Of a stretch of DNA of 30,104 nucleotides, positions 2,518-17,866 are shown piece by piece (the first letter of the stretch is position 1; the number at the start of each line of letters is the position of its first letter). The notes beneath the pieces were generated by a model. The model saw only the letters and a list, made by a program, of their open reading frames with translations, was not told the DNA's origin and did no database searches. Both the position numbers and the translations under genes were made by a program. The stretch is from an uncultured Opitutales bacterium. GTDB taxonomy: Bacteria; Verrucomicrobiota; Verrucomicrobiia; Opitutales; CAYWEO01. The DNA is taken from positions 1 through 30,104 of the forward strand of contig CAYWEO010000012.1 in the NCBI GenBank assembly GCA_964457855.1, written 5' to 3'.

Positions 2518-2548
2518 CAGTTTGTGTCCTTTATCCAAACACAAACTG
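2518..2548. repeat. Perfect 10-bp inverted repeat, function unknown
   Basis: cagtttgtgt (2518-2527), an 11-nt loop, then acacaaactg (2539-2548). It lies 65 nt downstream of the paralog 2 stop, with no adjacent T-tract on either strand. Confidence 0.5.
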
Positions 2549-2612
2549 ACCATTTTACACTTTGACAGCCCCTCATCGAAGCATCTGTAAGATCGCAACA
2601 GCCACGATTTAA

Positions 2613-3956: not shown

Positions 3957-4081
3957 ATGAACTCCATTTTTGTTGAATGTGATTGATATACAATTGCAAC
4001 CTGCCCCCTTGAAAAGGAAACCGATACGCAACTACGAACACTGTCTGCGCGAAAAAACACCTTGTCAAGGATTTGCGGGTG

Positions 4082-4130
4082 ACTTTTTTTGCAACTTTTT
4101 TGTAACTCAAAAACGACGCCACAAAAAACC
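4082..4130. repeat. Conserved inter-paralog block (terminator tail plus downstream leader), copy 2
   Basis: actttttttgcaacttttttgtaactcaaaaacgacgccacaaaaaacc; see 2353-2400. Confidence 0.75.
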
Positions 4131-4160
4131 CCAGCCTGGCGTTTTTTCGCCGGACTGGGG
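4122..4160 (-). terminator. Rho-independent terminator of CC-LRR paralog 3
   Basis: The minus strand reads CCCCAGTCCGGCG-aaaaaa-CGCCAGGCTGGGG followed by TTTTTTG (13-bp stem with one mismatch and one G-U pair). It lies about 85 nt downstream of the stop at 4245. Confidence 0.65.
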
Positions 4161-4161
4161 G

Positions 4162-4197
4162 CCGCTAATGCTCGTAATGGGCTGGCGGAGGGGGGGG
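4162..4197. repeat. Conserved 3'-flank motif of CC-LRR genes, copy 2
   Basis: ccgctaatgctcgtaatgggctggcggagggggggg lies between the paralog 3 stop and its terminator. The stem is degraded but the loop sequence and G-run are retained. Confidence 0.7.
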
Positions 4198-4244
4198 TAT
4201 GGAGGATTTTTGATTGTTTTGTTTTACGCTATTACGCTATAATG

Positions 4245-5336
4245 CTATAGTACGAGCCACTCGTAGCCTTGGTTGAATGGGTAGTCGCAGTTCGTGGTCA
4301 CTTTGATCTTTCTTCCCGTCGCGCGTTCCGCATCATCGTCGTAGTGAAAACGGTAGACATTATTAATGCCTAGTTTGAGTAACCTCTGAGACAAAGACCA
4401 CATACAATTGCAAGAACTGTTGGTGAGTCCAAAGAAGTTCAGCGTGGGGCATCCCAGGACGAATTTCGCAATCATGTCGACTGTCAGCAGCTCATCCTTA
4501 CACTCTTCTATGCTAAGTTGCCTGATTTCCTTATTGTGGCTGAGCAATGACTCAAGGGAATAGTCGCTGATATTGGCGCCGTTCAAGCAAACAGCCCGCA
4601 CATCTTTTAGTAGGCTGATTCCATTGATAACGGCAGCATCTGTTAACTTAGAGGCTTTTTGGCTGAGATCAATTCTCACTAAACGCTTGCAATGGCGTGC
4701 TAGTTGGATGACATCTGCATCTTGCATGGCATGCTTGCCCATATGGACCAAATCGCAACAAGAATTGTGGAGCACGGCGCTCAGCAAATTGTGGCAGTGG
4801 GCGGACAAATTGTGCATGAATTTATTGGTGACGTTGCCGCAGTCATACAAAAATATGTTTTCTAAATTTTTATAGGTTGTGGCAATGTAACACATGCTGG
4901 CGTCCGTTATTGAGGAGCCCTTGGTGTCTTTTTCTCCCCCAATCGCGACACTTAGTGGCAATTTGGCGCGTTCCTTTGAATCAAAAAAACAGGGGAGGAA
5001 GATTTTGAAAAGTCCAAGAATCTCTTTGTCTCCTGTGCCTTTGGGGAAATTAATGACGTTTTCCTGAAGGGTTTTCTCTAACATTTGTTTTATTTTATGC
5101 TTCGCATTTTTGTCGGCTTTCAGGACGTGCTGTAAGGCGTGTTCATCTAACTTGGAGATGGTTTTGAGGTCGAGGTAAAGAGGGTGTCCTGGTGAATCGC
5201 TGTTTAGTAGATTTGTAACAACTTCTTTAGCGAGTTCTTGTTTTACGTTATTCTGTTTGACGATGGAAACTCTCTTGATGTTCTTTATTTTTTTTGCTTT
5301 TGATTTCTTTTTAGGTTTTGATGGTATTATGCTCAT
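4245..5336 (-). CDS. Eukaryote-like CC-LRR protein, paralog 3 of 3, polybasic (NLS-like) N-terminus instead of a signal peptide
   Basis: 363-codon ORF starting at ATG 5336, with a sigma70-like promoter about 90-120 nt upstream. There is no hydrophobic N-terminal segment; the N-terminus reads MSIIPSKPKKKSKAKKIKNIKR. CC-LRR units include NIFLYDCGNVTNKFMHNLSAHCHNL, LARHCKRLVRIDLSQKASKLTDAAV and LSIEECKDELLTVDMIAKFVLGCPTL. Confidence 0.8.
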   Translation of the reverse strand: MSIIPSKPKKKSKAKKIKNIKRVSIVKQNNVKQELAKEVVTNLLNSDSPGHPLYLDLKTISKLDEHALQHVLKADKNAKHKIKQMLEKTLQENVINFPKGTGDKEILGLFKIFLPCFFDSKERAKLPLSVAIGGEKDTKGSSITDASMCYIATTYKNLENIFLYDCGNVTNKFMHNLSAHCHNLLSAVLHNSCCDLVHMGKHAMQDADVIQLARHCKRLVRIDLSQKASKLTDAAVINGISLLKDVRAVCLNGANISDYSLESLLSHNKEIRQLSIEECKDELLTVDMIAKFVLGCPTLNFFGLTNSSCNCMWSLSQRLLKLGINNVYRFHYDDDAERATGRKIKVTTNCDYPFNQGYEWLVL

Positions 5337-6257: not shown

Positions 6258-7685
6258 ATGAAAAAAGCTTTTTTTGGAGCCCTGATCGGATATTTTGTAA
6301 GCGGGGCCAGTGTTTTTGGTAACGGAATCAACGCAGATCCCCTCGCGGTCAATGCCATTCCGTGGGCTAACTACCTCGCAACGGCTTTATTTATGGGAGC
6401 GATTCTGCACACGTTTCTGACGGTAAAGATTCAGCATTACGTGGAGCATTTTTCGAAAAAATATCCCGTTGATGCGCAACCATTTGGGCTCAAAATCGCG
6501 CACTTTTTAGGCGAAGTTGAGGTCGTATTTGGCCTGTGGGTTTTACCGTTGTTGGTTGTTCTAACGTTTTTCAAGAGTTGGGAGTCGGCCGCAAACTATA
6601 TCGGATCGCGGCATTACGGGGAGCCTCTGTTTGTCATCGTGATCATGTGTATTGCGTCGTCCAAACCCATCTTGAAGGCGGCGGAATTTTGCTTAAAGCA
6701 CGTGGCAACGTTGGGGAATCAGACGGTGAGCGCCTGGTGGATGGCGATTTTGGTTTTGGCGCCGCTGTTGGGATCTCTCATTACTGAACCAGGTGCTATG
6801 ACGATTGCGGCCTCGTTGTTGGCGAAAAAGTGCTTTGATGTCGATGATGCGGACGGCACAACAGCGTCTTCGCGGGCTTTCCGTTACGCGACGTTGGGAT
6901 TGCTCTTCGTAAACGTTTCCATTGGGGGCACTTTGACGCATTTCGCTGCTCCACCCGTCCTAATGGTTGCGCGGACGTGGAATTGGAATACCCTCTTCAT
7001 GCTCAAGCACTTCGGTTGGTTGGTAGTGCTGGCAATATTCTTATCGACAACGTTTTATGGGATCTTGTTCCGAAAAGAGCTCGGGCGGTTAAACGCCTGC
7101 AAGAGAAGGCGTGAGGAAGGGGATTCTGTTCTTGCTGAGCCTGCCATGCCCCTGTGGGTGATTGGCGCGCACGTGATTTTCCTGTTATGGACTGTTTTTA
7201 ATGTCCAATATGTCCCGTTATTTATGGGAGGATTCCTCTTTTTCCTCGCCTTTGTGCAATCGACGCCCGCTTATCAGGAGCGTTTAAAATTGAGGGAATC
7301 GATTCTGGTGGGATTCTTCTTGGCCGGCTTGGTGATTCACGGAGGTCTCCAAACATGGTGGATAGAACCCCTCATCGGACGCGCAAGTGAGGCAATGTTG
7401 TTCTACGGAGCAACGTTTTTGACGTCCTTCAACGATAACGCTGCGATCACATACTTGGCGTCCTTGGTGCCATCATTCGCGGGACAACTGAATCTGCAAA
7501 CGGCCGTCGTTGCCGGCGCGGTGACAGGAGGCGGATTGACGGTCATCGCCAACGCGCCGAATCCCGCTGGACAGTCGTTGCTAGCACGCTACTTTAAGGG
7601 GGGGGTTTTGCCTTTATGGTTATTTCTGGGCGCCGTTCCGCCAACGATCATTGTGATTCTTTGCTTTCGCTGGATCGGGCGCTAG
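6258..7685 (+). CDS. Polytopic inner-membrane permease, possibly of the ion-transporter (ArsB/NhaD-like) superfamily
   Basis: 475-codon ORF with roughly a dozen hydrophobic segments by eye. LITEPGAMTIAA and SFNDNAAITYLA / VIANAPNPAG resemble the paired re-entrant loop motifs of IT-superfamily transporters. The family assignment is tentative. Confidence 0.6.
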   Translation: MKKAFFGALIGYFVSGASVFGNGINADPLAVNAIPWANYLATALFMGAILHTFLTVKIQHYVEHFSKKYPVDAQPFGLKIAHFLGEVEVVFGLWVLPLLVVLTFFKSWESAANYIGSRHYGEPLFVIVIMCIASSKPILKAAEFCLKHVATLGNQTVSAWWMAILVLAPLLGSLITEPGAMTIAASLLAKKCFDVDDADGTTASSRAFRYATLGLLFVNVSIGGTLTHFAAPPVLMVARTWNWNTLFMLKHFGWLVVLAIFLSTTFYGILFRKELGRLNACKRRREEGDSVLAEPAMPLWVIGAHVIFLLWTVFNVQYVPLFMGGFLFFLAFVQSTPAYQERLKLRESILVGFFLAGLVIHGGLQTWWIEPLIGRASEAMLFYGATFLTSFNDNAAITYLASLVPSFAGQLNLQTAVVAGAVTGGGLTVIANAPNPAGQSLLARYFKGGVLPLWLFLGAVPPTIIVILCFRWIGR

Positions 7686-8227
7686 ATTGTATTTTTCGGC
7701 TGATTTAGAAGCGCAGCTATTTTCTTTGCTGTGTCTACCACTTCTTGATCGAGCGCTTCCTTGGCTGAGTGTTTTGCGAGATCTGCCATGAAATCGAGAA
7801 CCTCTTCATGGCCCTCTCGCTTGGCTTTGAGTGCCGCTAACTCAGCTTCTGCGTGGGCATTTAAGAGATCAACCGTACTGATTTCGGCCGCCCGCGACGT
7901 ATCTTCACACGCGTGTGACTCAATGTGTGGTTTGAGACTCACAGTATAGGTTTCCTTGTCGATCTTAACGCTTCCATTGCTCGCAAGTTTGTTCATGACG
8001 TCCGTAGCTGCTTCTAGAGAGATGGGCTTTTCGCTCTGCAATTTCTCCTTTAAAATCGAGACAACCTTATCAAATTCCGGCTTGCTTTCCCTGATACGTT
8101 TCTCGTATAAGCTGTCGCAATCGCTTTCAAATTTCTTAAGCTCTGTCTCTGAAGCCTTTTTTTGAACTGGATTGGGATCGGTGTTATTTATATAAGCTGG
8201 TTGTGATTGTACTGATTGTATTGCCAT
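7682..8227 (-). CDS. Hypothetical acidic, helical/coiled-coil-like protein (181 aa), no recognised family
   Basis: Uninterrupted ORF filling the gap between the permease and murJ. It has no signal peptide or TM segment, and shows helical heptad-like stretches (AEAELAALKAKREGHEEV). Its stop shares the palindrome CTAG (7682-7685) with the convergent permease stop. Confidence 0.5.
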   Translation of the reverse strand: MAIQSVQSQPAYINNTDPNPVQKKASETELKKFESDCDSLYEKRIRESKPEFDKVVSILKEKLQSEKPISLEAATDVMNKLASNGSVKIDKETYTVSLKPHIESHACEDTSRAAEISTVDLLNAHAEAELAALKAKREGHEEVLDFMADLAKHSAKEALDQEVVDTAKKIAALLNQPKNTI

Positions 8228-8308: not shown

Positions 8309-9859
8309 GTGCACTTAAGAAAAATGTTAACGTTATTCTGGGGAGTTCTCGCTTCACGGATCTTTGGACTTGCTCGCGATGCCTTGATATTCACGTATTT
8401 AGGCGTTTCTGAATGGAGTTCAGCCTTCGTGTTGGCGTTTACTTTGCCGAACCTCTTCCGACGTTTACTCGGCGAGGGGGCTCTGACGTCGGCGCTAATT
8501 CCTGTGTTTTCAGGGGTGTTTGTCGCAAACGGTAAAGAGGCTGCTTTTAGCGTCCTAAATAAGGTGATTGCGCGGTTTTTGGGAATTATTTGTGTGGTAA
8601 CGGGCATCGTGGTGGTTGCTTTGTTGGCCGTGAAATACATTCCTGGCCTTCCCGAGCGTTGGTATTTGGGGGCGGAATTGGCGGAAATTCTTATGCCGTA
8701 CATGGGAATGATCTGTTTGGCGGCAGTAGTGAGCGCGTTGTTGAATATTTTGGATCATTTTGGATCGCTCGGTTTGTCGGCGGTTTGGCTCAACGTGAGC
8801 ATGATCGCGAGCTTGTACGTTGGAGGGAAATGGTTTCAGCACGATCCCAAGCGGCAAGTGGAATGTTTGTGCGTGGGGGTGCTGGTGGGAGGCGTCCTGC
8901 AGTTATGGATTCCCGCCCATCAGCTCTGGAAACGCGGCTGGAAATGGCATTTTGACGGCGGTCGTTGCGAGGAAATGAGCCACGTCGTGCGCCTGTTTTT
9001 GCCGGGGGTTCTTGGTGCAGCTGTCTTTCAAATCAATCTCCTGTGCGGGCGCCTGATTGCATTTTCGATGGATGCTACAGCGACGTCTGTGCTGTATTTG
9101 GTGAATCGCTTTATGGAATTACCGCTTGGCCTCTTCGTTTTCGCAATCACAACGGTGGTTTTCCCCACTTTGGCAGTTGCGATCGCGAAATGCAGCTGGG
9201 GGGCCGTTGCGGATCACTATAGACGGGGATTATTGTTGGTCCTAGGCATGACAATTCCCGCGGGTGTTGGGATGGCGGTTTTGCGTAACCCGATCATCAG
9301 TCTCTTCTTCGAGTGGGGGAAGTTCGGGGCTCAGGACGTAAACGCTTGCAGCCCACTGTTTTTAATCTTTGCGTGGGCCTTGCCATTTTACGCACAAACG
9401 ACGTTTGTGACGAGGGGATTCCATGCGATGAAGGATACGGTAACGCCCGTCAAAATCGCCTTTAAAGTGTTTGCGCTCAATATTTTTCTATCGCTTGCAA
9501 TGTATCGCTTAGGTGTCGTTGGATTAAGCCTCGCCAACGTTTTTTCAACCATCTTTCACGGGATCTGTTTGCAACGGGCGATTTCGCGGAGGAACGAGGC
9601 GTTTCATTTTACGGGTTTGTGGCGGCCGATCGGACGGATGATCCTTGCGGCGATTCTGATGGGGGTGGTTTGCCAGGGAATTTTGGCGATCATGCAGGTT
9701 GAGGAGGCACCGTCTAAGTGGTTGCTGGTGAGATCGTTAATGAGTGTCATTGCTTGCGGATCTGTCGTGTATGGTCTGTCGTTGTACTTATTACAAGCGC
9801 CAGGCAAACGGAAGTTGTTATGGGCAGGAATTCGGGAAATTTTTATCAAAAAGGTATGA
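8309..9859 (+). CDS. murJ: Lipid II flippase MurJ (MviN family)
   Basis: Polytopic protein of about 510 aa. The N-terminal LASRIFGLARDALIFTYLG...FTLPNLFRRLLGEGALTSALIPVF matches the MurJ signature region (E. coli SRVLGFARD...[24 protein letters not shown]). The start is either GTG 8309 (ORF track) or ATG 8324. Confidence 0.85.
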   Translation: MHLRKMLTLFWGVLASRIFGLARDALIFTYLGVSEWSSAFVLAFTLPNLFRRLLGEGALTSALIPVFSGVFVANGKEAAFSVLNKVIARFLGIICVVTGIVVVALLAVKYIPGLPERWYLGAELAEILMPYMGMICLAAVVSALLNILDHFGSLGLSAVWLNVSMIASLYVGGKWFQHDPKRQVECLCVGVLVGGVLQLWIPAHQLWKRGWKWHFDGGRCEEMSHVVRLFLPGVLGAAVFQINLLCGRLIAFSMDATATSVLYLVNRFMELPLGLFVFAITTVVFPTLAVAIAKCSWGAVADHYRRGLLLVLGMTIPAGVGMAVLRNPIISLFFEWGKFGAQDVNACSPLFLIFAWALPFYAQTTFVTRGFHAMKDTVTPVKIAFKVFALNIFLSLAMYRLGVVGLSLANVFSTIFHGICLQRAISRRNEAFHFTGLWRPIGRMILAAILMGVVCQGILAIMQVEEAPSKWLLVRSLMSVIACGSVVYGLSLYLLQAPGKRKLLWAGIREIFIKKV

Positions 9860-9863
9860 TGTT

Positions 9864-10991
9864 ATGTCAGAATTTATAGGAGAATCGATTAAAGTGATGG
9901 GTGTCGGAAACGTCGGGTTGCGTGTCCTGCAAAGTATTGACAGAGAAGATGTTTGTGCGAGCGTGTTGCATACGGACGTGCGTGCGCTGGAGCAGGTTGC
10001 GTTGGCGTTGCCGAAAAATGTCAAAAAAGTCCTCTTGGGACGTTCGTTGCTGCACGGTTTGGGTACGGGCGGTGATGTGACGTTGGGGAATGCCGTTGGA
10101 GAGGCTGAGAGAGAGGCGATCGAGGCTGTCATCGGCGATGCGAAACTCCTCTTTCTTGTCGTTGGCTTGGGGGGCGGCACGGGATCGAGTTTGGGGCCTC
10201 TGATCGCGAAATTGGCGGTTTTGCGTGGGGTTTACGTCTTTGCTTACGCTCTTTTGCCGTTCGAGTTTGAGGGGAAAAAGCGCTTTGAAGTCGCCAATCA
10301 TGCCTTGAAGGAGCTGGAATCCGTTTGCGACGTCGTGATTTGCCTGCAGAACGACTTTCTGTTGAACGGACGCGGGCATAATGTGCCGCAGGATACCCTT
10401 GTCTTGGAAGCATTTGAGTGCGCGCACAAGTGGATTTGGAACGGCATCAGAGGGATTATTCAAGTCGCTCGCGGAGAGGGACTTTTGCTGGGAGATCAAC
10501 GAGCGCTCTTGAACTTTCTAGATGCTGCGAAAAACGAACAGTGCGTCTTTGGCGTTGGTTCTGGAGCAGGAAAAGATTGCGAACGCGTTGCACTGGAACA
10601 GCTTCGGCAGTGTCCCTTTTTTGTTTTGCGCAATGACTGGAAAATTGCCCATGCGGTCATTGTGTTAAGGAGTGGGAAAGATTTTACGCAAGTGCGTGCG
10701 ATGGAATGCGCTAAGAAAATTACTGACCTGTTCGGCATCGGCGAGCAAAGAATCTTTTGCTTGGAAATTGATGAACATGCGCAGCAAGTGCTTGATGTGT
10801 ATATCATTGGCATCGCTAAAGAGCAGTTCCGCATGGGCGGGCGGTATTGCCTATATTCCGAGGATACGGTCGGCTGGGAGCTGCTTGTCTCTGGCAAACA
10901 GGACGTGGCAAGTTGGCAAGAAGGCCTTCTGAGAGAGGTGGATATGGACGTCCCCACCTACATGCGTTTGAATATTCCTTTGTCTCGGTAA
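9864..10991 (+). CDS. ftsZ: Divergent FtsZ-family (tubulin-like GTPase) protein, translationally coupled to murJ
   Basis: ATG 9864 lies 4 nt after the murJ stop (TGA 9857-9859); the longer ORF from 9744 overlaps murJ and is rejected. It is collinear by eye with E. coli FtsZ. Matches are IKVMGVG, HTD (NTD), GLGTGGDVTLG (T3), GLGGGTGSS at 10164-10190 (tubulin signature GGGTGxG), LPFEFEGKKR (T5), QNDFLL (T6) and C-terminal DVPTYMRL at 10947-10970 (cf. DIPAFLR). The T1 loop reads GVGNVG (9900-9917) instead of GVGGGGGN. The T7 position reads LGDQRA (10488-10505) instead of NVDFAD. Confidence 0.8.
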   Translation: MSEFIGESIKVMGVGNVGLRVLQSIDREDVCASVLHTDVRALEQVALALPKNVKKVLLGRSLLHGLGTGGDVTLGNAVGEAEREAIEAVIGDAKLLFLVVGLGGGTGSSLGPLIAKLAVLRGVYVFAYALLPFEFEGKKRFEVANHALKELESVCDVVICLQNDFLLNGRGHNVPQDTLVLEAFECAHKWIWNGIRGIIQVARGEGLLLGDQRALLNFLDAAKNEQCVFGVGSGAGKDCERVALEQLRQCPFFVLRNDWKIAHAVIVLRSGKDFTQVRAMECAKKITDLFGIGEQRIFCLEIDEHAQQVLDVYIIGIAKEQFRMGGRYCLYSEDTVGWELLVSGKQDVASWQEGLLREVDMDVPTYMRLNIPLSR

Positions 10992-11003
10992 AGGCGGGAA
11001 ATT

Positions 11004-11088
11004 CCGGAGAACCCTATTTTTGCAAACAATGGGTTCTCGTGGACCCTCTGGACTCTTCAAAGAAAACTCTTATTCGGCAGGCATTTTT
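11004..11088. repeat. Compound palindromic repeat, truncated copy (H1 hairpin + spacer + left half of H2)
   Basis: It begins 13 nt after the ftsZ-like stop. H1 is ccggagaaccctatttttgcaaacaatgggttctcgtgg, the spacer is ccctctggactcttcaaagaaaactcttatt, and then only cggcaggcatttttg follows (left arm of H2). Confidence 0.7.
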
Positions 11089-11163
11089 GTATTTTCGCTT
11101 GACAAGTTGGTAATTATACTAAACGCATAATCGTATAAAATTTAACAATACAGGAGTTTTGAT

Positions 11164-12720
11164 ATGAATAGAGCCCATTTACTAAAAAAAGTCGTTATCG
11201 GTGCGTGTGCGTGTTTATGCACGATTATCGGCATGTCATCGGCATCTGCGATGAAGAAAATCGAATGGAAGGAAAATGCCAAAATCGTGAATTCGGAAGA
11301 GGCTAAAGAAGAAAATAGTAAGAAATGTATGGTGAATGTCTTGGGCGATGTTTGGATTTTTTTTAACGAGAATTCGCTCTCGAAAAATACGTTCTCGAAG
11401 AATAAGTCCCAGAGGAGGAGATTTGACAAGTTCCAGAAGAAGAGATTTAAGATAACCTATACGATGACAAAAGAACATGGCGATCAATTCCGCAAATGGC
11501 TCAACAACGGTACTTGGCTCGAAACGAGTGCTGGTACGTCGGAATTTTTTACCGCTTCGCAATGGTATGCTAAGAACGATAAAGAATGGATTAAATTGTC
11601 GAGCGAATCGAAGCATGAGAAGTCTAGATACGAAGTGTTGAGCGAGCCGTTAAAGCAGACGTCATTGGATAAGTGCCTCAAGGGCATTCGCAATTTTTCT
11701 TTAGGCAATACTGCAGAGAAGCAGATACTTGGGTTAGTCATGCCGGATATGGAATGGTTTAAGAATGCGATATTGAAGCAATGTATCCATTGCAAGGAGG
11801 TTTGCCTTTCTGGAAACGTATTTGATCAGGGCGGGGACGGTTGGTGGTTTGAGCTCTCGGAAGTTCTCAATGAGGGACTATGGCATGTCCTTAAATCTAT
11901 GGAGCTGAAAAAACTGACACTTTGCTGTTACCTACGTGAAGATCTTTTGGATTCGTTTTTGAGGAAGTCCTTATTAGCTCGCGACAATAACGTTCCTAGC
12001 GTTCCCTGGAAGTTTTTTGGCCAACTTGAACAGGTGACGTTAGTTCTGAAGGGTTGTAAAAACGGTCGAAAAATCTTTGACCCTTATCAGCTTATTACGT
12101 TCGGGTCCATAAGTGGAAGTGGATATAGTAAAGTCAGATCTTGGTTAAAGCTCGATTTTAGCCAATGTAAAAAACTAAAAGAGTTAAAAATCTATGCACA
12201 TGGAATAAAATTCAACGAGACAATTTTGGAGACCATTCCGGAATCTATTGAAGTGTTGGAATTGCATTTTTGGAACAGTGCCATTGATTTTCGTTCCTTT
12301 CAGAAATTTAAAAATCTCAAAAATCTCAAGAAGCTTAATTTGTGGTTGTATGGCCCTAAGTCGGAAATTTATAAATTTAAAGGAATCGGAACGATGGAAA
12401 ATTTGGAAGAGCTTGGAGTTTTCTTGAGTGAAGAGGCTTTGGATAAGATTAAAACGGAATTTTTAAGTCCTATTAATGAATTGAAAAATCTGAAGAAGCT
12501 AAGACTCTGCAATTTTAAAATATCGGATGAAGATAGCTTCTACTCTTTCTTAGAGAAGTTTCCAAATCTCGAAAAACTCTTAGTGAATGACGCTGTTTTC
12601 GGTAAAAATATGTCTCTTGCGGAAAATCAAAACACATTGCGAATAAATTACTTGGCCAATAAGAGTTGCAAAATTAAGAGCAAATTTAAGCACGCGGCCA
12701 AAAACAAGTTTATAGAGTAG
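11164..12720 (+). CDS. Exported LRR-like protein, family 2, paralog A
   Basis: AGGAG lies 7 nt upstream of ATG 11164. The signal peptide is MNRAHLLKKVVIGACACLCTIIGMSSASA/MKK. The C-terminal third has leucine-rich repeats with xNLxxLxL cores (FKNLKNLKKLNLWL, MENLEELGVFL, LKNLKKLRLCNFKI, FPNLEKLLVND). It is collinear with the two downstream paralogs (LDFSQCKKLKELKIYA...IEVLELHF). Confidence 0.75.
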   Translation: MNRAHLLKKVVIGACACLCTIIGMSSASAMKKIEWKENAKIVNSEEAKEENSKKCMVNVLGDVWIFFNENSLSKNTFSKNKSQRRRFDKFQKKRFKITYTMTKEHGDQFRKWLNNGTWLETSAGTSEFFTASQWYAKNDKEWIKLSSESKHEKSRYEVLSEPLKQTSLDKCLKGIRNFSLGNTAEKQILGLVMPDMEWFKNAILKQCIHCKEVCLSGNVFDQGGDGWWFELSEVLNEGLWHVLKSMELKKLTLCCYLREDLLDSFLRKSLLARDNNVPSVPWKFFGQLEQVTLVLKGCKNGRKIFDPYQLITFGSISGSGYSKVRSWLKLDFSQCKKLKELKIYAHGIKFNETILETIPESIEVLELHFWNSAIDFRSFQKFKNLKNLKKLNLWLYGPKSEIYKFKGIGTMENLEELGVFLSEEALDKIKTEFLSPINELKNLKKLRLCNFKISDEDSFYSFLEKFPNLEKLLVNDAVFGKNMSLAENQNTLRINYLANKSCKIKSKFKHAAKNKFIE

Positions 12721-12759
12721 ATTGCAATAGTTAAAATTTAACAATATAGGAGTTTTTAT

Positions 12760-14616
12760 ATGACTATCGTTTATTTATTAAAAAAAACCGCTATCGGCGC
12801 GTGCGTGTGTTTGTGCACGCTATTGGGCATTTCATCGGCATCTGCGATGAAGGAGACGCAACTATGGGAGTTTTTTCATAGATTCTTAACGGAAGATGCT
12901 CCAAAGGATATCGAGGTGCGTGATTACAAAAAGCCCTTAAAAGAGATTTTTGGCAATATGACGATTGAGGAGATTAGTATACAACTATTTGGTGATCGGT
13001 TTATGATGTCGATGATTAGTGAGGCAGGAGCTAGTCAAGATCAGGGAAATGGAAGCTGTCTAAATAATACCATCGAGTCGGAGACGATTTTCCCAGTTCT
13101 TGCTTTGACGGAAACTCAAAAAGAGAAAAATAACCAAAAGTGCCACCATTACCTTCACGATTTGAACATTCGTTTTGAGAACACAAAAGTTGTTGAGGAT
13201 AACAAAAATACATCTAATAATAAGTTGGATCTAAATCTCGGCGAAAATCCCAACGCTGTTGTTTCGTTGACGGGTTCTGAGAAGAAAAATCGCGACAAAT
13301 GTAAGCGTTCCCTTTGTGATGTGCTCATTGAGTTTAAGTCTATTACGAAATTTGAGAATAATTCTGGGCAGAAGGCCATTGTGTTTACAATCTCTGAGGA
13401 ATGCAAAGGAGACTTCAAGAAATGGCTCTGGGATGAATCAGAATTATTTCATTTTAAGCAATGGAAGAAAGAGATTGCTAAAATTAATGACCAACTCACG
13501 CGTGGCTTGTTTTTGTGCCAACTTTCTTATGACAGCGGAATGCCGATCCGTCCGGAACACCTCAAAGGAGAGTGGATGAGTCGCGTTACTCGATTTTCCT
13601 TTGGTGCGATTGAAGTTACAATGAAGCGGATTCCGGATATTGAATGGTTGATGGATGTGCTAAAGAAGTGTCCTAAGTGCAAAGAATTCAATTTGCTTTC
13701 GCACAACATCTTTAACGATGATTGTTGGTATTTAAGGCCTTTCGAGTTTCTAAATTCAGGGTTGTTAAAACAGTTGCAATTTATGCAAATTAAAAAGCTG
13801 GGGCTTTGTTTTCGTATGTATCGATCGGTTTGGAGTGACATTAAGAAATACAAGAGTCCGCCAAACGTCTATCCGCTTAAGTTCTGGAGGGAACTCGAAG
13901 ACGTTGAATTAGTTTTCGAAATGTCATTGTATTGGGCGCCAACACTTTTTGTGGGCGATCTTTTTGTGGGCGATTATACTTTCAATGATGGAAACAAACT
14001 TAAAACCGAAAGTTACAAAAAACACCTAGAGCTCGATTTCAGTCAATGTCTTTTCCTTAAAAAACTAACCATTTACGCTCCCGACGCGCGCTTTACTGAA
14101 GAGATTTTGGCAACCATACCAAATAACTCCCTTGAAGAGCTTGAGTTGCATTTTACAGTCAAGGACGAAACAGATTTCAGCTGGTTAGCAAGGTTCAAAA
14201 ATCTCAAAGTGCTTCGTCTGTGGCTTTATAAATATGACGTTTGGCAACTGAAGTTTAAAGGTCTCACAAATCCAAAACTCGAGAAGCTCGTTATATGCAT
14301 GGATAGCCATTGCTCCAAAGGTCGAAGTATTAACATTGAGCGTTTTAATTTTCTAAAAGGACTGAAAAACCTCAAGAAATTGACATTGGGTAATATCTGC
14401 TTTAAAAAGCCGGAAGATTTCTACAATTTGTTGGAGAATATGAAGGAAAAAGGTATCTCTCTGAAAAAACTTTTATTGACTAACCAAGTCTTGGATCGAG
14501 ATATCACAAGCGAGACAAATGAAAGCATATTGCGCGAGATTTACATTCCTGAGGACTGTATAATAAAGAACACGTTTAAAAATGAAGGTAAAAACTCTTT
14601 TGTAGGAGAAGAGTAA
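12760..14616 (+). CDS. Exported LRR-like protein, family 2, paralog B (N-terminal Cys module duplicated)
   Basis: AGGAG lies 7 nt upstream of ATG 12760. The signal peptide is MTIVYLLKKTAIGACVCLCTLLGISSASA/MKE. There are two copies of the module LT-x4-K-N-x2-KC...D(V/L)xIxF (LALTETQKEKNNQKCHHYLHDLNIRF and VSLTGSEKKNRDKCKRSLCDVLIEF). The C-terminal repeats include FKNLKVLRLWL, LKNLKKLTLGNICF and ELDFSQCLFLKKLTIYA. Confidence 0.75.
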   Translation: MTIVYLLKKTAIGACVCLCTLLGISSASAMKETQLWEFFHRFLTEDAPKDIEVRDYKKPLKEIFGNMTIEEISIQLFGDRFMMSMISEAGASQDQGNGSCLNNTIESETIFPVLALTETQKEKNNQKCHHYLHDLNIRFENTKVVEDNKNTSNNKLDLNLGENPNAVVSLTGSEKKNRDKCKRSLCDVLIEFKSITKFENNSGQKAIVFTISEECKGDFKKWLWDESELFHFKQWKKEIAKINDQLTRGLFLCQLSYDSGMPIRPEHLKGEWMSRVTRFSFGAIEVTMKRIPDIEWLMDVLKKCPKCKEFNLLSHNIFNDDCWYLRPFEFLNSGLLKQLQFMQIKKLGLCFRMYRSVWSDIKKYKSPPNVYPLKFWRELEDVELVFEMSLYWAPTLFVGDLFVGDYTFNDGNKLKTESYKKHLELDFSQCLFLKKLTIYAPDARFTEEILATIPNNSLEELELHFTVKDETDFSWLARFKNLKVLRLWLYKYDVWQLKFKGLTNPKLEKLVICMDSHCSKGRSINIERFNFLKGLKNLKKLTLGNICFKKPEDFYNLLENMKEKGISLKKLLLTNQVLDRDITSETNESILREIYIPEDCIIKNTFKNEGKNSFVGEE

Positions 14617-14660
14617 ACATTGAAGAGAAAGAAAACAAAAACGAGCTTATAAAGTAAGGG

Positions 14661-14708
14661 TTCCGCTCACTCTCTCAACCGTCACAACGTTCTCGATGTG
14701 GCGGGTTT
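14661..14708 (-). pseudogene. Relic of the 3' end of a rumA/rlmD gene between LRR-like paralogs B and C
   Basis: The minus strand reads acc cgc cac atc gag aac gtt gtg acg gtt gag aga gtg, encoding TRHIENVVTVERV. This is identical to the last residues of the live gene (16574-16612). There are 34/39 nt identities, and all 5 differences are synonymous third positions. Confidence 0.75.
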
Positions 14709-14747
14709 TTTTGGGATGGGCCTCGCGTGGCGGGCTTTTTGAGGGTT

Positions 14748-14786
14748 GTCTCGCGAGGATTGGCGGATTTTCGTGAGACTTTTTTT
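14748..14786 (+). terminator. Rho-independent terminator after LRR-like paralog B
   Basis: GTCTCGCGA (14748-14756) pairs with TCGTGAGAC (14771-14779) in a 9-bp stem with one G-U pair. The loop is 14 nt, followed by T7 (14780-14786). Confidence 0.65.
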
Positions 14787-14850
14787 ATATTTACGCATTT
14801 AATTGACAGTTTCATGATTATGGTGAACTAACGATATAAGGAGTTTTTAT

Positions 14851-16551
14851 ATGAATATCGTTTATTTATCAAAAAAGGCCGCTATCGGTGTATGTTTATG
14901 CACGCTGATCGGCATTTCATCGGCGTCTGCGATGAGAGTGCGGCCGGAAGGCGATAAACGCTTTTGCAGTGTCGCTATCGTCATCGAAGACAAACTTCAG
15001 AAAGATCAGAAAGATCAGAACAATCAGAAGAGTCAGAAGGAGCAGGGTGGCGAAAGTTCCCAAACCATTGCGCTGGAAGGAGCTTCCAATGTTATCGAGT
15101 GGAAGGAAAATTCCCAACTCGTTGATTTAACGGGAGTTAGAGGGAAAAATAATCAAAAGTGCAAGGAGAAGTGCCTTTGCGATGTGTGGATTGAGTTTAA
15201 GAGTATCATGAAATTTGAGAGCGAAGGTAAGCATTCGCAGCAGAAGGGGCGCAAAACGATCTTTAAAGTCACTCCAGAATACAAACAGCAGCTGATCCAA
15301 TGGCTCTTGTCCGAATTGCGCTTTTCCAAACAATTGATTGCAGACAGCAATCGGAAGGTAGCGGACATTTTAAAGAATTCGGCAATGAAAAATGGCGTTT
15401 TGCTGATTCCCGAGTATCAGATGGATGATTTCACTAAATCATTGAAATGGATTAGCCATTTGCCTCTTCATTTGGTCAGTGATGAGGGGTCTAATAGTCG
15501 TAGTTGTTGTGTTTGGGATTTTTTCGGTAGTCAAAAGCCTGCAATCCGTGCCAAATCACTGGTCAGTCTTTTGAAAAAATGTTGGCATCTTCAAGAACTT
15601 AATGCGTGGCACCAAACTAAGCCAGACCTCTCTCTTATTTTCAGCCAAGTCCGTTTTTTTGAGGAAGAAATTCCTCAATCTGAACGTATAGATGATGATC
15701 CCATGAAGACTTTAAGCCATTGCAGTGACTGTCAATACGCCTGGTGGCTCTTTCTGAAAGAAGCGGATCAAGAAAACTTATTTCATTATTTGAGTGCCCT
15801 AAAACTGACAAAGTTGGCTCTCGGTTTTTATTGGAAGCACGAAAGTAAGAACCTAAAAACCGTGGGGGAAATCAAGCAGGTAAATTTTAAGCTTCAGCCA
15901 TTACAACACCTGAAAAGCTTACAATTGTTTATTAAGGCAGAGGACGAAGGCTCGAGTCAATTGGATTCCCTTGAATTCGATTTAAACAAATGTCCCAATC
16001 TTGAAGTGCTCGATTTACATTTTTCGGGAGTACCGTTTGGAACGGACATGCTAAAAACATCCCAACTGAGCTCTCTCAAAACTTTAAAGTTGGCGTTGCA
16101 CATGAATCACAAGACTAAAAAACAATACATGGATTTCTCTTGTTTTAAGGATTGCTCAAGTCTTGAAGTCATTCATTTGTACTTTGAATCTGGATGTCTA
16201 ACAAACCTTACATGGCTAAAAAATTTAAAAAATCTACGAGAAATCAAACTATTTATGGGCTGTCCAGTCAAGTGGTCAGTGCATGCTGCTTTCTTTCTAC
16301 CGCTGACAGAATGCAAAGAACTGAGCGTGCTCCACATCCAAAATATTCATGTAAAAGATAACAATCAATTTTATGAATTGTTGAAATCTTTCCCGTGCCT
16401 AGAAGAACTTCTCCTTGGTGAGGAAGTGGTCGATGAATATATCGGTATGAACAAAAATAAAAAGAAACTGCGGGAGAATTACTTAATCAAAAAAGAGAAC
16501 TGCCGAATCAGCGGTAAGGATAAGGTGACTGGCATCTATTATGCTAACTAG
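14851..16551 (+). CDS. Exported LRR-like protein, family 2, paralog C (with Q/K-rich 9-bp repeat tract)
   Basis: AGGAG lies 7 nt upstream of ATG 14851. The signal peptide is MNIVYLSKKAAIGVCLCTLIGISSASA/MRV. It has the shared module VDLTGVRGKNNQKCKEKCLCDVWIEFKSIMKFE. The C-terminal repeats include CPNLEVLDLHF, LSSLKTLKLAL, CSSLEVIHLYF, LKNLKNLREIKLFM and FPCLEELLLGE. Confidence 0.75.
   Translation: MNIVYLSKKAAIGVCLCTLIGISSASAMRVRPEGDKRFCSVAIVIEDKLQKDQKDQNNQKSQKEQGGESSQTIALEGASNVIEWKENSQLVDLTGVRGKNNQKCKEKCLCDVWIEFKSIMKFESEGKHSQQKGRKTIFKVTPEYKQQLIQWLLSELRFSKQLIADSNRKVADILKNSAMKNGVLLIPEYQMDDFTKSLKWISHLPLHLVSDEGSNSRSCCVWDFFGSQKPAIRAKSLVSLLKKCWHLQELNAWHQTKPDLSLIFSQVRFFEEEIPQSERIDDDPMKTLSHCSDCQYAWWLFLKEADQENLFHYLSALKLTKLALGFYWKHESKNLKTVGEIKQVNFKLQPLQHLKSLQLFIKAEDEGSSQLDSLEFDLNKCPNLEVLDLHFSGVPFGTDMLKTSQLSSLKTLKLALHMNHKTKKQYMDFSCFKDCSSLEVIHLYFESGCLTNLTWLKNLKNLREIKLFMGCPVKWSVHAAFFLPLTECKELSVLHIQNIHVKDNNQFYELLKSFPCLEELLLGEEVVDEYIGMNKNKKKLRENYLIKKENCRISGKDKVTGIYYAN
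14998..15045 (+). repeat. In-frame 9-bp tandem repeat (about 5 units) in LRR-like paralog C
   Basis: cagaaagat cagaaagat cagaacaat cagaagagt cagaaggag cag, encoding QKDQKDQNNQKSQKEQ. Confidence 0.85.
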
Positions 16552-16570: not shown

Positions 16571-17866
16571 TCACCCCACCCTCTCGACCGTTACGACGTT
16601 TTCGATGTGGCGGGTTTGGGGGAAGAGGTCGAAGGGCTGGATCTTTTCGATGCGGAAACGGCCGGGGTAGTCTGTCAGCAGTACTTTCAGGTCGCGCGCT
16701 TGGGTATCGGGACTGCAGGAAATGTATACGATCCGTTGAGGCGCGAGGGTGATCAGTTGCTCCAGGAGCTTTTTGTCACAACCCTTTCGTGGGGGATCCA
16801 AAATGACGGCCGTTTGTAGAGGATTTTCCAAAAAGTTGGCCAGAATGCTTTCGGCCTGACCCGGTACAAACGTGCAGTTTTTGGCGCCGTTGATGCTGGC
16901 ATTGTGCGTAGCCAAACTGATGGCCTCCGGATCAATTTCCACGCCAATGACTTTTTGAAACCCTTTGTGGCTCGCAATACCGAAAATGCCGATGCCGCAA
17001 TAGATATCCAGAAGCGTTTCCAGGCCCTCCCCAGCGACTCCCTTGGCGACATACTCCACTAAGTGATTGAGAACGAAGGGGTTGTTTTGGAAAAATCCGC
17101 CTGCGTAGAACCAAAAATGCCAGGGACCAACGGTTTCGGAGACAATCGCATTGGGATCCGTCACCACTCCTTCATTGGACTTGCGGATGAGGATGGTGGC
17201 TCCTCGCTTCGGCGGTTTTTCCCAAAGACGTGAACGCGTCTCACAAAGCGCTCGATTCAGGCCTTCAATCGCAATCGCACACTCTGCAACGTCCACGAGG
17301 GCCTGCCGCGTGCCGCTTCTCAAGAACCCAATGGGGAAGCCATCGCCCCTCGGTTTTTGGAAATGAGGCGTGATTTTGGAACGGTAATGGTCCGTTTTTG
17401 GCGATCCGATGGTGGGCAGAATTTCTGTGAAAGGGAAACCTCCGATGCGTTCAAAACTGTCGCGCACGTGCTGGGCCTTCCACTTCAGCTGCTGGGCATA
17501 ATCAAGATGCTGGTACTGGCAGCCACCGCAGGTGCCAAAGTAGCTGCAGAAGGGCTTTGAGCGCCATTCTGAGGGCTCTAGGACTGCGGCAAGATCACCC
17601 TCGGAATACGTCTTATGGTTCCGGTAAATGCGTGCTGTGATCAGCTCTCCTGGGAGGGAAAAGGGCACCATGACGACCCAATTATCGACACGCCCAAGGC
17701 CGACCCCAAGATTTGTCAGGGTTTCGATACGTAGCGTGACTTCTTCGTGGTAGCTAAATGGCTGCTGGACAAAGTTTTTTGGTGGTGTGTTCACAGACGA
17801 TTTCCTGTTTAGAAAGCTTTTCGTACAATTCTTTGACGAGAGCATTTGCCCTGCAAGGCTCGACAA
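16571..17866 (-). CDS. rlmD: RumA/RlmD-type RNA (uracil-5)-methyltransferase with TRAM domain and Fe-S cysteine cluster
   Basis: It has a TRAM-like N-terminal region (EVTLRIETLTNLGVGLGRVDNWVVMVPFSLPGELITARI) and the cysteine cluster CSYFGTCGGCQYQHL. SAM-MTase motifs are LLDIYCGIGIFG and ILDPPRKG, with nucleophile region VYISCSP. The ORF-track start 17866 is TTG; ATG 17845 and GTG 17794 (AGGA upstream) are alternatives. All candidates overlap the lysC 3' end (stop 17754-17756). Confidence 0.8.
   Translation of the reverse strand: MSSLAGQMLSSKNCTKSFLNRKSSVNTPPKNFVQQPFSYHEEVTLRIETLTNLGVGLGRVDNWVVMVPFSLPGELITARIYRNHKTYSEGDLAAVLEPSEWRSKPFCSYFGTCGGCQYQHLDYAQQLKWKAQHVRDSFERIGGFPFTEILPTIGSPKTDHYRSKITPHFQKPRGDGFPIGFLRSGTRQALVDVAECAIAIEGLNRALCETRSRLWEKPPKRGATILIRKSNEGVVTDPNAIVSETVGPWHFWFYAGGFFQNNPFVLNHLVEYVAKGVAGEGLETLLDIYCGIGIFGIASHKGFQKVIGVEIDPEAISLATHNASINGAKNCTFVPGQAESILANFLENPLQTAVILDPPRKGCDKKLLEQLITLAPQRIVYISCSPDTQARDLKVLLTDYPGRFRIEKIQPFDLFPQTRHIENVVTVERVG

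What the first reader, a model, noticed from the sequence alone, without database searches (positions are those of the whole stretch)
9864..10991. Divergent FtsZ homolog fused into a murJ operon, with intact tubulin signature and anchor peptide but apparently degenerate T1 and T7 GTPase loops
What the sequence shows:
- A 375-aa ORF starts 4 nt after the murJ stop, so translational coupling is likely.
- It aligns collinearly by eye with E. coli FtsZ. Matches are IKVMGVG, HTD for NTD, GLGTGGDVTLG for GLGAGANPEVG, GLGGGTGSS for GMGGGTGTG, LPFEFEGKKR for KPFNFEGKKR and QNDFLL for PNDKLL.
- The extreme C-terminus DVPTYMRL resembles the conserved FtsA/ZipA-binding peptide DIPAFLR.
- Two elements needed for nucleotide binding and hydrolysis look altered. 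The glycine-rich T1 loop GGGGGN reads GNVGLR. At the T7 synergy-loop position (E. coli NVDFAD) I read LGDQRA, so the second Asp (D212 equivalent) appears to be Ala.
- The genomic context is not the usual ftsQ-ftsA-ftsZ end of a dcw cluster. The gene follows the lipid II flippase gene and is itself followed by a palindromic repeat.

Inference:
- This is either a highly derived division FtsZ or a GTPase-impaired FtsZ-like scaffold tied to septal peptidoglycan precursor export.
- If the genome belongs to a lineage regarded as FtsZ-less (Chlamydiae, most Planctomycetes), this would be notable. If it is verrucomicrobial or lentisphaeral, divergent FtsZ genes are already known.
Basis: partly seen in the sequence, partly recalled or inferred. 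Interest (0 to 1): 0.72.

Follow-up and report, generated by a model that had tools for sequence, protein, structure and literature searches.

The report
Very divergent verrucomicrobial FtsZ beside murJ
[quoted passage not shown] It comes from an uncultured bacterium of the class Opitutae (phylum Verrucomicrobiota), a group already known to keep FtsZ, so it is a modest curiosity and not FtsZ turning up in a lineage thought to lack it.

Summary
**Observation:** it holds up. Window 9864-10991 (+) is an intact 375-aa ORF that starts 4 nt after the murJ stop. It is a genuine two-domain FtsZ:
- Pfam Tubulin scores 87 bits.
- PDB FtsZ chains match at E about 1e-25.
- The AlphaFold2 model has pLDDT 87.5, and its top Foldseek hits are all FtsZ.

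**Altered motifs:** rigorous alignment confirms them. T1 reads GNVGLR. T7 reads LGDQRA, which in E. coli numbering is N207L, D209 kept and D212A.

**Organism:** it is not from an FtsZ-less lineage. Ribosomal protein S1 is about 70% identical to Opitutales and Puniceicoccales proteins. The nearest FtsZ relatives (31-37% identity) are Opitutae FtsZs at the ftsA-ftsZ end of dcw clusters.

**D212 loss:** this is a feature of the whole clade. 46 of 49 Opitutae-clade FtsZs have Thr, Ser, Ala or another non-Asp residue there.

**Changes specific to this lineage:** G20N, G21V, N24R, G111S, N186H, N207L and A211R, plus the move next to murJ. All are shared with a 51%-identical ortholog, P0002. Motif residues are more conserved than the rest of the core (75% vs 47%), and the C-terminal anchor peptide is kept.

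**Verdict:** most likely the organism's division FtsZ, highly derived and probably a slow GTPase. Whether the genome has a second ftsZ, or an ftsA, could not be tested.

The parts
8309..9859 (+). murJ, the lipid II flippase gene; upstream partner in the apparent murJ-ftsZ operon
   Evidence: Pfam MurJ scores 287 bits. TIGR01695 scores 295.2 bits against a cut-off of 235.55. The stop codon is at 9857-9859. A murJ C-terminus also lies directly upstream of the orthologous ftsZ in L081.
9864..10991 (+). Divergent ftsZ, 375 aa plus stop codon
   Evidence: The AF2 model has pLDDT 87.5 and pTM 0.82. The top 50 Foldseek PDB hits are all FtsZ, with target-normalised TM up to 0.90.
9900..9923 (+). T1 loop, residues G13-R20 (GVGNVGLR). 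Relative to E. coli: G20N, G21V, G23L, N24R
   Evidence: Alignment tables. The stretch is identical in ortholog P0002 apart from V14I.
10164..10190 (+). T4 tubulin signature, residues G101-S109 (GLGGGTGSS). The last Gly is replaced by Ser
10425..10427 (+). His188 on helix H7. This position (E. coli N186, S. aureus D187) is D or N in 42 of 49 Opitutae-clade and 34 of 37 other FtsZs
   Evidence: P0002 also has His here.
10479..10511 (+). T7 synergy loop and start of H8, residues G206-L216 (GLLLGDQRALL). Relative to E. coli: N207L, D209 kept, A211R, D212A
   Evidence: In the AF2 model H8 starts at residue 212, immediately after D211.
10941..10970 (+). C-terminal conserved peptide DMDVPTYMRL, the presumed FtsA/anchor-binding motif
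   Evidence: It matches the clade consensus DLDVPTY[LI]RRG. D362, P364 and R368 are at least 90% conserved in alignment A1.
10992..11095 (+). One copy of a dispersed intergenic repeat containing the palindrome at 11007-11038. It probably forms a hairpin
   Evidence: Other copies lie at about 20419-20506 and 23267-23341, and copies are present in relative L119.
11164..16551 (+). Block of three paralogous secreted LRR-protein genes, inserted between ftsZ and the trmA-like gene relative to L081
   Evidence: Pfam LRR hits; paralogy; GC 0.35-0.41 against about 0.5 in flanking genes; the block is absent in L081.
16571..17866 (-). tRNA (uracil-5)-methyltransferase-like gene, used as the downstream synteny anchor
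   Evidence: Pfam tRNA_U5-meth_tr. It is 64% identical to the gene that converges on ftsZ in L081.

Best explanation
This is most likely the cell-division FtsZ of an uncultured bacterium of class Opitutae (Verrucomicrobiota). The secreted LRR and lipase genes around it hint at a host-associated lifestyle, but that is inference. The gene is an ortholog of the Opitutae ftsZ that normally follows ftsA in the dcw cluster. In this lineage it has been relocated immediately downstream of murJ, is probably co-transcribed with it, and has diverged unusually far.

**Shown:**
- The two-domain FtsZ fold is predicted with confidence.
- Nucleotide-binding loops T2-T6 are largely conserved.
- T1, H7 and T7 are modified, and the modified versions are themselves conserved.
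- The C-terminal anchor peptide is conserved.
- The murJ-ftsZ adjacency is conserved in a 51%-identical ortholog.

**Inferred:**
- The protein still binds GTP and polymerises head to tail.
- It hydrolyses GTP slowly. The T7 loop inserted into the next subunit lacks the D212-equivalent acidic residue, as in nearly all Opitutae FtsZs, and additionally lacks N207.
- Its filaments are tethered to the membrane through the C-terminal peptide, presumably via FtsA.
- Operon linkage with murJ co-expresses the Z-ring protein with lipid II export.
For: **Family and fold.**

**Taxon.** S1 is 65-71% identical to Opitutales, Puniceicoccales and Opitutaceae proteins.

**Nearest FtsZs.**
- They include FtsZ of Opitutaceae TAV1 and TAV5 and of Puniceicoccales.
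- P0003, P0005 and P0076 all lie in ftsW-murG-murCB-ddl-ftsQ-ftsA-ftsZ clusters.

**Tree.** In the NJ tree the window protein (Q below) and P0002 group in 100% of bootstraps. They join the Opitutae clade in 70%.

**Characters shared with the Opitutae clade.**
- Non-Asp at position 212: 46 of 49 Opitutae-clade sequences, while 30 of 37 other FtsZs have Asp.
- Trp at E. coli position 188: 45 of 49.
- Asp-hydrophobic at positions 166-167.

**Purifying selection.** Q and P0002 are identical at 48 of 64 motif positions and 112 of 239 other core positions (Fisher p = 6.6e-5). Intact ORFs are seen in three lineages: Q with P0001, P0241 and P0002.

**Anchor peptide.** Conserved.

**Synteny.** A murJ C-terminus lies upstream and the trmA-like gene downstream of P0002 in L081.

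**Native gene.** GC of ftsZ is 0.52, like the flanking core genes.

**Literature.** The E. coli D212A mutant keeps about 7% of GTPase activity (PMC8142252). Verrucomicrobia, including subdivision 4, retain ftsZ, and ftsZ is essential in V. spinosum (PMC5303756, PMC12283558).
Against: - The gene is not next to ftsA or any other dcw gene, and none lies in the 30-kb window. A second, more canonical ftsZ elsewhere cannot be excluded.
- Q scores only 121.5 bits on TIGR00065, against a cut-off of 295.2. Dcw-located Opitutae FtsZs score 187-317 bits.
- Pfam FtsZ_C is not detected.
- Several substitutions hit positions that are otherwise nearly invariant. G21V and N207L occur in 0 of 86 comparison sequences, and N186H in 1 of 86. 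Nucleotide binding or hydrolysis may therefore be impaired more seriously than in other Opitutae.
- Placement with the Opitutae clade has only 70% NJ bootstrap support, and the stem branch is long.
Confidence: 0.72

Rival explanations
1. It is a specialised, GTPase-dead FtsZ paralog or scaffold that works with MurJ in peptidoglycan-precursor export. A separate canonical FtsZ in a dcw cluster elsewhere in the genome carries out division.
For: - The gene sits beside murJ and not ftsA, and this adjacency is conserved in L081.
- There are extra active-site changes beyond the clade norm: N207L, G21V, N186H and G111S.
- Its TIGR00065 score is the lowest of the FtsZs scored.
Against: - The exhaustive search of 1.84 billion representative proteins found only orthologs of this type as close relatives. 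After those, the next hits are dcw FtsZs of Opitutae.
- The protein shares clade synapomorphies and the C-terminal anchor peptide. That is what an ortholog would show and not what an old paralog would.
- No example of an Opitutae genome with two ftsZ genes was seen. This was not searched systematically.
Confidence: 0.15
2. It is a gene under relaxed selection on its way to loss. This would parallel the loss of ftsZ in Chlamydiota and Planctomycetota, and the motif changes would be early decay.
For: - The branch is long. Kimura distance to E. coli is 1.87 for Q and 2.18 for P0002, against a mean of 1.47 for other Opitutae.
- Catalytic residues are lost.
- The dcw linkage is broken.
- The surrounding effector-like genes suggest a host-associated lifestyle.
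Against: - The ORF is intact and of similar length in lineages that are 51% identical.
- Motif positions, including the derived ones (GNVGLR, AHK, LLGDxRA), are significantly more conserved than the rest of the core.
- The linker and anchor peptide are conserved across Q, P0241 and P0002.
- S1 of this organism is also on a long branch: 69% identity to the other S1 hits, against 77% among those hits. The speed-up is therefore not specific to ftsZ.
Confidence: 0.08

Closest known systems
FtsZ of class Opitutae (Verrucomicrobia subdivision 4), e.g. Opitutaceae bacterium TAV1/TAV5 FtsZ (EIQ00072.1, AHF89492.1) and MAG Opitutales FtsZ P0003
   Same: - Same two-domain FtsZ fold.
- Same tubulin-signature core, GGGTGS.
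- Non-Asp residue at the E. coli D212 position.
- Trp at E. coli position 188.
- C-terminal D-[LM]-D-V-P-T-Y-x-R peptide.
- Nearest clade in the tree.

   Different: - Only 31-37% identical.
- T1 is GNVGLR, where the clade has GGAGxN.
- N207L, A211R, N186H and G111S.
- The linker is short, about 40 residues, and conserved.
- Encoded after murJ and not after ftsA at the end of the dcw cluster.
- TIGR00065 score is 121 bits against 187-317 bits.
Canonical bacterial FtsZ (E. coli, B. subtilis, S. aureus; TIGR00065)
   Same: - The overall fold matches B. subtilis 2vxy, with target-normalised TM 0.90 and rmsd 2.2 A.
- The T3, T4, T5 and T6 loops are conserved.
- D209 is kept.
- There is a C-terminal anchor peptide.
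   Different: - 26% core identity to E. coli.
- Below the equivalog cut-off.
- T1 lacks three of five glycines.
- T7 lacks N207 and D212. In E. coli, D212A leaves about 7% of GTPase activity (PMC8142252).
- Not in a dcw cluster.
Verrucomicrobium spinosum FtsZ (class Verrucomicrobiia)
   Same: It is a divergent PVC FtsZ. The published work describes it as among the most divergent bacterial FtsZs, and it is essential in V. spinosum (PMC1845146, PMC12283558).
   Different: - V. spinosum FtsZ has a long C-terminal extension and lies in the dcw cluster.
- Non-Opitutae FtsZs in the comparison set, many of them verrucomicrobial, mostly keep an Asp at position 212 (NVDFND or RIGFDD).
- The window protein has a short linker and no Asp at 212.
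Beta-tubulin-type T7 loops that lack the catalytic acidic residue, and tubulin T1 loops (GQ[AC]G[NV]Q)
   Same: The T1 pattern G-polar-hydrophobic-G-x-polar, and the absence of the catalytic acidic residue on H8, resemble what is seen in tubulins. This rests on established knowledge and was not tested here.
   Different: All sequence and fold searches put the protein within FtsZ and not within tubulin, BtubA/B or CetZ. CetZ and tubulin-like PDB entries score far lower, at E 1e-5 to 1e-14.

Membership tests
Tubulin/FtsZ superfamily | Tubulin/FtsZ GTPase domain (Pfam PF00091) above the gathering score | tested here: met
   87.2 bits against a cut-off of 33, covering residues 32-168.
FtsZ (NCBIfam TIGR00065 equivalog) | Whole-protein score at or above the curated cut-off of 295.2 bits | tested here: not met
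   121.5 bits. Dcw-located Opitutae FtsZs also fall below the cut-off: P0003 223.6, P0005 223.9 and P0076 187.3 bits. A canonical FtsZ scores 433 bits.
FtsZ | Two-domain fold: N-terminal GTPase domain, helix H7, then the C-terminal FtsZ_C domain | tested here: met
   Pfam FtsZ_C is not detected by sequence. The AF2 model is confident through residue 320. Foldseek aligns 314-334 columns to FtsZ crystal structures, with target-normalised TM 0.77-0.90.
FtsZ | Tubulin signature [SAG]-G-G-T-G-[SAT]-G (T4 loop) | tested here: inconclusive
   The sequence is G-G-G-T-G-S-S. Six of seven positions fit. The last Gly, conserved in at least 90% of alignment A1, is Ser109 here and in P0002.
FtsZ | Glycine-rich T1 loop, GGGGxN | tested here: not met
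   G15-N-V-G-L-R20. G20N occurs in 6 of 86 comparison FtsZs, G21V in 0 of 86 and N24R in 5 of 86.
FtsZ | T7 synergy loop NxDxxD, which carries the catalytic Asp residues | tested here: not met
   L209-G-D211-Q-R-A214. Position 212 is also non-Asp in 46 of 49 Opitutae-clade FtsZs. N207L is seen only in Q and P0002.
FtsZ | Conserved extreme C-terminal peptide that binds FtsA, ZipA or other anchors | tested here: met
   DMDVPTYMRL against the clade consensus DLDVPTY[LI]RRG. Binding itself is not testable here.
FtsZ | Gene at the ftsQ-ftsA-ftsZ end of the dcw cluster (usual, but not obligatory) | tested here: not met
   The gene follows murJ with a 4-nt gap, and no dcw gene lies in the 30-kb window. 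The same murJ linkage is seen in L081.
FtsZ | GTP-dependent polymerisation, GTPase activity and mid-cell Z-ring localisation | not testable with these tools
   This needs recombinant protein and microscopy.
Opitutae FtsZ clade | Phylogenetic placement and shared derived residues | tested here: met
   In the NJ tree Q and P0002 group in 100% of bootstraps and join the Opitutae clade in 70%; the nearest neighbours are all Opitutae-clade sequences in 78%. Shared residues are W190, a non-Asp at position 212 and D164 followed by a hydrophobic residue. Support is moderate and the branch is long.

The most novel reading that the evidence does not exclude
In this Opitutae lineage FtsZ has become an essentially non-hydrolysing filament or scaffold. 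Two of the three T7 residues are lost, the T1 and H7 nucleotide contacts are remodelled, and new conserved arginines appear at R20 and R213. The gene has been uncoupled from ftsA and rewired into an operon with the lipid II flippase. On this reading it would be a living intermediate between FtsZ-driven division and the FtsZ-independent, peptidoglycan-precursor-driven division of Chlamydiota and Planctomycetota.
Probability: 0.12. Interest if true: 0.7.

Novelty: new variant of a known kind. Interest (0 to 1): 0.3.

Why it matters
If it is simply the division FtsZ, it extends the known range of sequences that still make a working FtsZ. It lacks N207 and D212, and its T1 loop keeps only two glycines. 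It also points to the whole class Opitutae as a natural experiment in which the 'invariant' catalytic Asp of the T7 loop is replaced by Thr, Ser or Ala while the gene stays in the dcw cluster.

That would be useful for understanding how much GTPase activity and treadmilling division really needs. It also bears on how the PVC superphylum moved towards FtsZ-less division. It does not overturn any current view, because Verrucomicrobia are already known to keep divergent ftsZ genes.

Tried and rejected
**Searches that led nowhere.**
1. Finding the source genome or close relatives in GTDB species representatives. The pattern scan returned only unrelated FtsZs at 25-33% identity.
2. Two metagenome-contig scans. 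One used patterns from the Q/P0002 alignment. The other used a degenerate DNA pattern for GNVGLRVLQ (checked by tblastn). Neither found a relative, so no longer contigs of the lineage were obtained.
3. An exact look-up of the window protein found nothing on record. Only a 1727-bp contig of the same strain (L116, 1 nt difference), a 1520-bp contig of P0002 (L081) and a 3275-bp contig of P0241 (L119) exist.
4. Pilhofer et al. 2008, the primary description of PVC dcw genes, is not held.
5. Searches of the held papers on FtsZ, Verrucomicrobia/Opitutus and the T7 loop turned up no report of D212 loss in Opitutae FtsZ. Absence from this library does not prove the finding is new.

**Readings considered and rejected.**
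- *A chlamydial or planctomycete origin.* The strong Na_H_antiport_3 hit and the LRR effector genes suggested it. S1 and FtsZ affinities rule it out.
- *Horizontal acquisition of ftsZ.* Its GC matches the core genes.
- *A palindrome specific to ftsZ.* It is a dispersed repeat.
- *Acceleration specific to FtsZ.* S1 of this lineage is also on a long branch. The ratio of FtsZ to S1 divergence is about 3.3 for this pair and about 2.6 among the other sequences compared, so the two are similar.
- *My own first reading of a D187K change at the guanine contact.* It was off by one. The relevant position is E. coli N186 (S. aureus D187), which is His here.
Full report
**1. The observation.** Window 9864-10991 (+) is an uninterrupted 375-codon ORF.
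- murJ (8309-9859) is well supported: Pfam MurJ 287 bits, and TIGR01695 295 bits against a cut-off of 235.55.
- murJ ends with TGA at 9857-9859, and the ATG follows after 4 nt.
- No promoter-like or terminator-like site lies between the two genes.
- An in-frame GTG at 9744 would extend the ORF into murJ. The ortholog P0002 starts at the position of the ATG, and the FtsZ profile alignment begins at residue 7-8, so 9864 is the likely start.

**2. Family and fold.**
- Pfam Tubulin/FtsZ GTPase domain: 87.2 bits against a cut-off of 33.
- NCBIfam TIGR00065 (ftsZ): 121.5 bits, E 4.7e-35, covering residues 7-315 and profile positions 18-320 of 353. This is far below the equivalog cut-off of 295.2.
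- phmmer against PDB sequences returns about 50 FtsZ sequences at E 1e-21 to 1e-25. CetZ and tubulin-like entries score much lower.
- An AlphaFold2 model built on a 67-sequence alignment has mean pLDDT 87.5 and pTM 0.82. It is confident through residue 320, has a low-confidence linker at 324-357, and shows a short C-terminal helix at 365-368.
- The top 50 Foldseek PDB matches are all FtsZ. An example is B. subtilis 2vxy, with target-normalised TM 0.90 and rmsd 2.2 A.
- Pfam FtsZ_C is not detected by sequence, but the C-terminal domain is present in the fold.

**3. Organism.** Ribosomal protein S1 (23645-25414, minus strand) is 65-71% identical to S1 of Opitutales, Puniceicoccales, Opitutaceae, Ruficoccus and Oceanipulchritudo. 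The genome therefore belongs to Verrucomicrobiota, class Opitutae (subdivision 4). It is not from Chlamydiota or Planctomycetota.

Published work states that Verrucomicrobia, including subdivision 4, retain ftsZ. It also reports that verrucomicrobial FtsZ is among the most divergent known and that ftsZ is essential in V. spinosum (PMC5303756, PMC1845146, PMC12283558). The window also carries ordinary housekeeping genes: lpxA, plsY, an aspartate kinase, holA, rpsA and a carbonic anhydrase.

**4. Relatives.** The word-indexed search of 5.8 billion proteins and the exhaustive HMMER search of 1.84 billion representatives agree.
- P0001 is a fragment from the same strain. Its contig L116 differs from the window by 1 nt in 1727.
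- P0241 is a 109-aa C-terminal fragment, 87% identical.
- P0002 is 361 aa and 51% identical.
- After these there is a gap down to 31-37% identity. The proteins there include FtsZ of Opitutaceae TAV1 and TAV5, of Puniceicoccales and of 'Verrucomicrobia bacterium GWC2_42_7'.
- Three of these more distant relatives were checked for context. P0003, P0005 and P0076 all lie in ftsW-murG-murCB-ddl-ftsQ-ftsA-ftsZ clusters.
- In an NJ tree on 307 core columns and 88 sequences, the window protein (Q) and P0002 group in 100% of bootstraps and join the Opitutae clade in 70%. Their nearest neighbours are all Opitutae-clade sequences in 78%.
- The stem branch is long. Kimura distance to E. coli is 1.87 for Q and 2.18 for P0002, against a mean of 1.47 for other Opitutae.

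**5. Motifs (E. coli numbering).**

| Element | E. coli | Window protein (Q) | Notes |
|---|---|---|---|
| T1 | G19-G-G-G-G-N24 | G15-N-V-G-L-R20 | G20N in 6 of 86 comparison FtsZs; G21 is Ala in most PVC FtsZs but Val in none; N24R in 5 of 86 |
| T2 | NTD | HTD | His also occurs in 7 of 37 non-Opitutae relatives |
| T3 | conserved | GTGGD | conserved |
| T4 | GGGTG[ST]G | GGGTGSS | last Gly replaced by Ser |
| T5 | conserved | PFxFEGxxR | conserved |
| T6 | conserved | ND | conserved |
| H7 | N186 (S. aureus D187) | His188 | D or N in 76 of 86 |
| T7 | N207-V-D209-F-A-D212 | L209-G-D211-Q-R-A214 | see below |

The key comparative result concerns position 212. It is Thr, Ser, Ala or another non-Asp residue in 46 of 49 Opitutae-clade FtsZs, and Asp in 30 of 37 others. 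N207 and D209 are kept in 33 and 46 of the 49. Loss of the 'catalytic' Asp is therefore a class-level trait of FtsZs that sit in dcw clusters. It is not a peculiarity of this gene.

What is specific to Q and P0002 is N207L, F210Q/R, A211R, the T1 changes, N186H and G111S.

Q also shares apparent synapomorphies with the Opitutae clade:
- Trp at position 188 (45 of 49);
- Asp-hydrophobic at positions 166-167;
- the C-terminal peptide DLDVPTYxR.

TIGR00065 scores form a continuum:
- canonical FtsZ: 433 bits;
- other Verrucomicrobia: 295-320 bits;
- dcw-located Opitutae: 187-317 bits;
- Q and P0002: 121 bits.

**6. Selection.** Q and P0002 are identical at 48 of 64 positions in the T1-T7 and H7 segments, and at 112 of 239 other core positions (Fisher p = 6.6e-5). 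The derived strings themselves are conserved:
- GNVGLRVLQ;
- LHTDVRAL;
- GLGGGTGSS;
- NDFLLN;
- AHK;
- LLGDxRA.

The linker and anchor peptide are also conserved across Q, P0241 and P0002. This argues for a functional, constrained nucleotide and interface pocket, and against decay.

The speed-up is not confined to ftsZ.
- S1 of this lineage is 69% identical to the other S1 hits, while those hits average 77% among themselves.
- S1 of the P0002 organism (P0122, from the same JGI sample as P0002) is 85% identical, against 51% for FtsZ.
- That ratio of FtsZ to S1 divergence is about 3.3. Among the other sequences compared it is about 2.6, which is similar.

**7. Context.**
- L081, the contig of P0002, has a murJ C-terminus 7 nt upstream of ftsZ (LQPADGRQWMLKGLREIFRKR against LQAPGKRKLLWAGIREIFIKK).
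- Immediately downstream in L081 is a convergent trmA-like methyltransferase, 64% identical to window 16571-17866.
- The murJ-ftsZ pair is therefore conserved in this lineage. The three LRR genes at 11164-16551 (GC 0.35-0.41) are an insertion.
- In L119 (P0241), two MFS transporter genes occupy the same position.
- The palindrome after ftsZ belongs to a dispersed repeat of about 90-100 nt, with further copies in the window and in L119. The stem shows compensatory changes. It has no Rfam match.

**8. Most likely mechanism.** The steps under points 2 to 7 are shown; what follows is inferred. The protein is the lineage's division FtsZ. It binds GTP through the intact T3-T6 loops and a T1 loop that keeps the two glycines also retained in tubulins. 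It polymerises head to tail.

It probably hydrolyses GTP slowly, because the T7 loop presented to the neighbouring subunit lacks N207 and the D212-equivalent residue. In E. coli, D212A leaves about 7% of activity (PMC8142252). It is probably anchored through its C-terminal peptide, presumably by FtsA. Co-transcription with murJ would couple its expression to lipid II export.

Rivals are a GTPase-dead paralog or scaffold with a canonical ftsZ elsewhere (about 0.15) and a gene under relaxed selection heading for loss (about 0.08). Neither can be excluded without the genome.

**9. Novelty.** This is FtsZ in a phylum known to have divergent FtsZs, so the high-interest reading (FtsZ in an FtsZ-less lineage) is refuted. 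What remains new is the degree of active-site remodelling in a conserved small lineage, the murJ-ftsZ operon, and the broader observation that Opitutae FtsZs as a class lack D212. I rate it a new variant of a known kind, with interest about 0.3.

**10. What failed.** The genome-contig scan and both metagenome-contig scans found no further relatives or longer contigs. Pilhofer et al. 2008 is not held. Whether a second ftsZ or an ftsA exists in this genome could not be tested.

Noticed in passing
Alignment; proteins P0243-P0300, P0003, P0005, P0076; loci L082, L117, L118: FtsZ of the whole Opitutae clade lacks the T7 Asp equivalent to E. coli D212. It is Thr, Ser, Ala or another non-Asp residue in 46 of 49 sequences, and the motif reads NxDFA[TSA]L. 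The three members checked still sit after ftsA in dcw clusters. Searches of the held papers on FtsZ, Verrucomicrobia/Opitutus and the T7 loop turned up no report of this.
   Followed up: partly
window 10992-11095, ~20419-20506, ~23267-23341; weaker copies near 20803-20875, 22011-22118 and 23295-23405; L119 403-648: A dispersed intergenic repeat of about 90-100 nt. It has a conserved hairpin (CCGGAGAACCC...GGGTTCTCCGG, with compensatory CCC/GGG to CCA/TGG changes) and the tail AAAACTCTTATTCGGNAGGCATTTTT. It also occurs in a related organism. It is REP/MITE-like or terminator-like and has no Rfam match.
   Followed up: partly
window 11164-16551 (+): Three tandem paralogous genes for LRR proteins with signal peptides and near-identical N-termini (MxxxxLxKKxxIGACxCLCT..SSASAM). 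GC is low (0.35-0.41), and their 5' regions are similar to each other. The block is absent at this position in relative L081 and replaced by two MFS transporter genes in L119. It looks like a variable, possibly effector-type island.
   Followed up: partly
window 516-5336 (-): A second family of three paralogous proteins of unknown function (584, 472 and 363 aa), 25-36% identical to one another. Two share an N-terminal signal-like sequence, and one has a weak F-box-type LRR hit.
   Followed up: no
window 26328-30104 (+): Two adjacent paralogous secreted proteins with Lipase_3 (class 3 lipase) domains. The second runs off the end of the window.
   Followed up: no
window 6258-7685 (+): A very strong match to Pfam Na_H_antiport_3 (PF07399): 532 bits, E 1e-159. 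It lies just upstream of murJ and is separated from it by a 181-aa minus-strand ORF (7682-8227) with no family hit.
   Followed up: no
P0242 (840 aa), P0256 (826 aa), P0271 (744 aa): Proteins in the representative library that contain two complete FtsZ modules in tandem in one polypeptide. These may be real fusions or gene-calling artefacts. They are unrelated to the window lineage.
   Followed up: no
L082 4832-6886, L117 3709-5928, L118 2270-4573: The Opitutae dcw clusters carry a fused murC-murB gene of 684-767 aa. This is the same fusion reported as essential in V. spinosum (PMC12283558).
   Followed up: no
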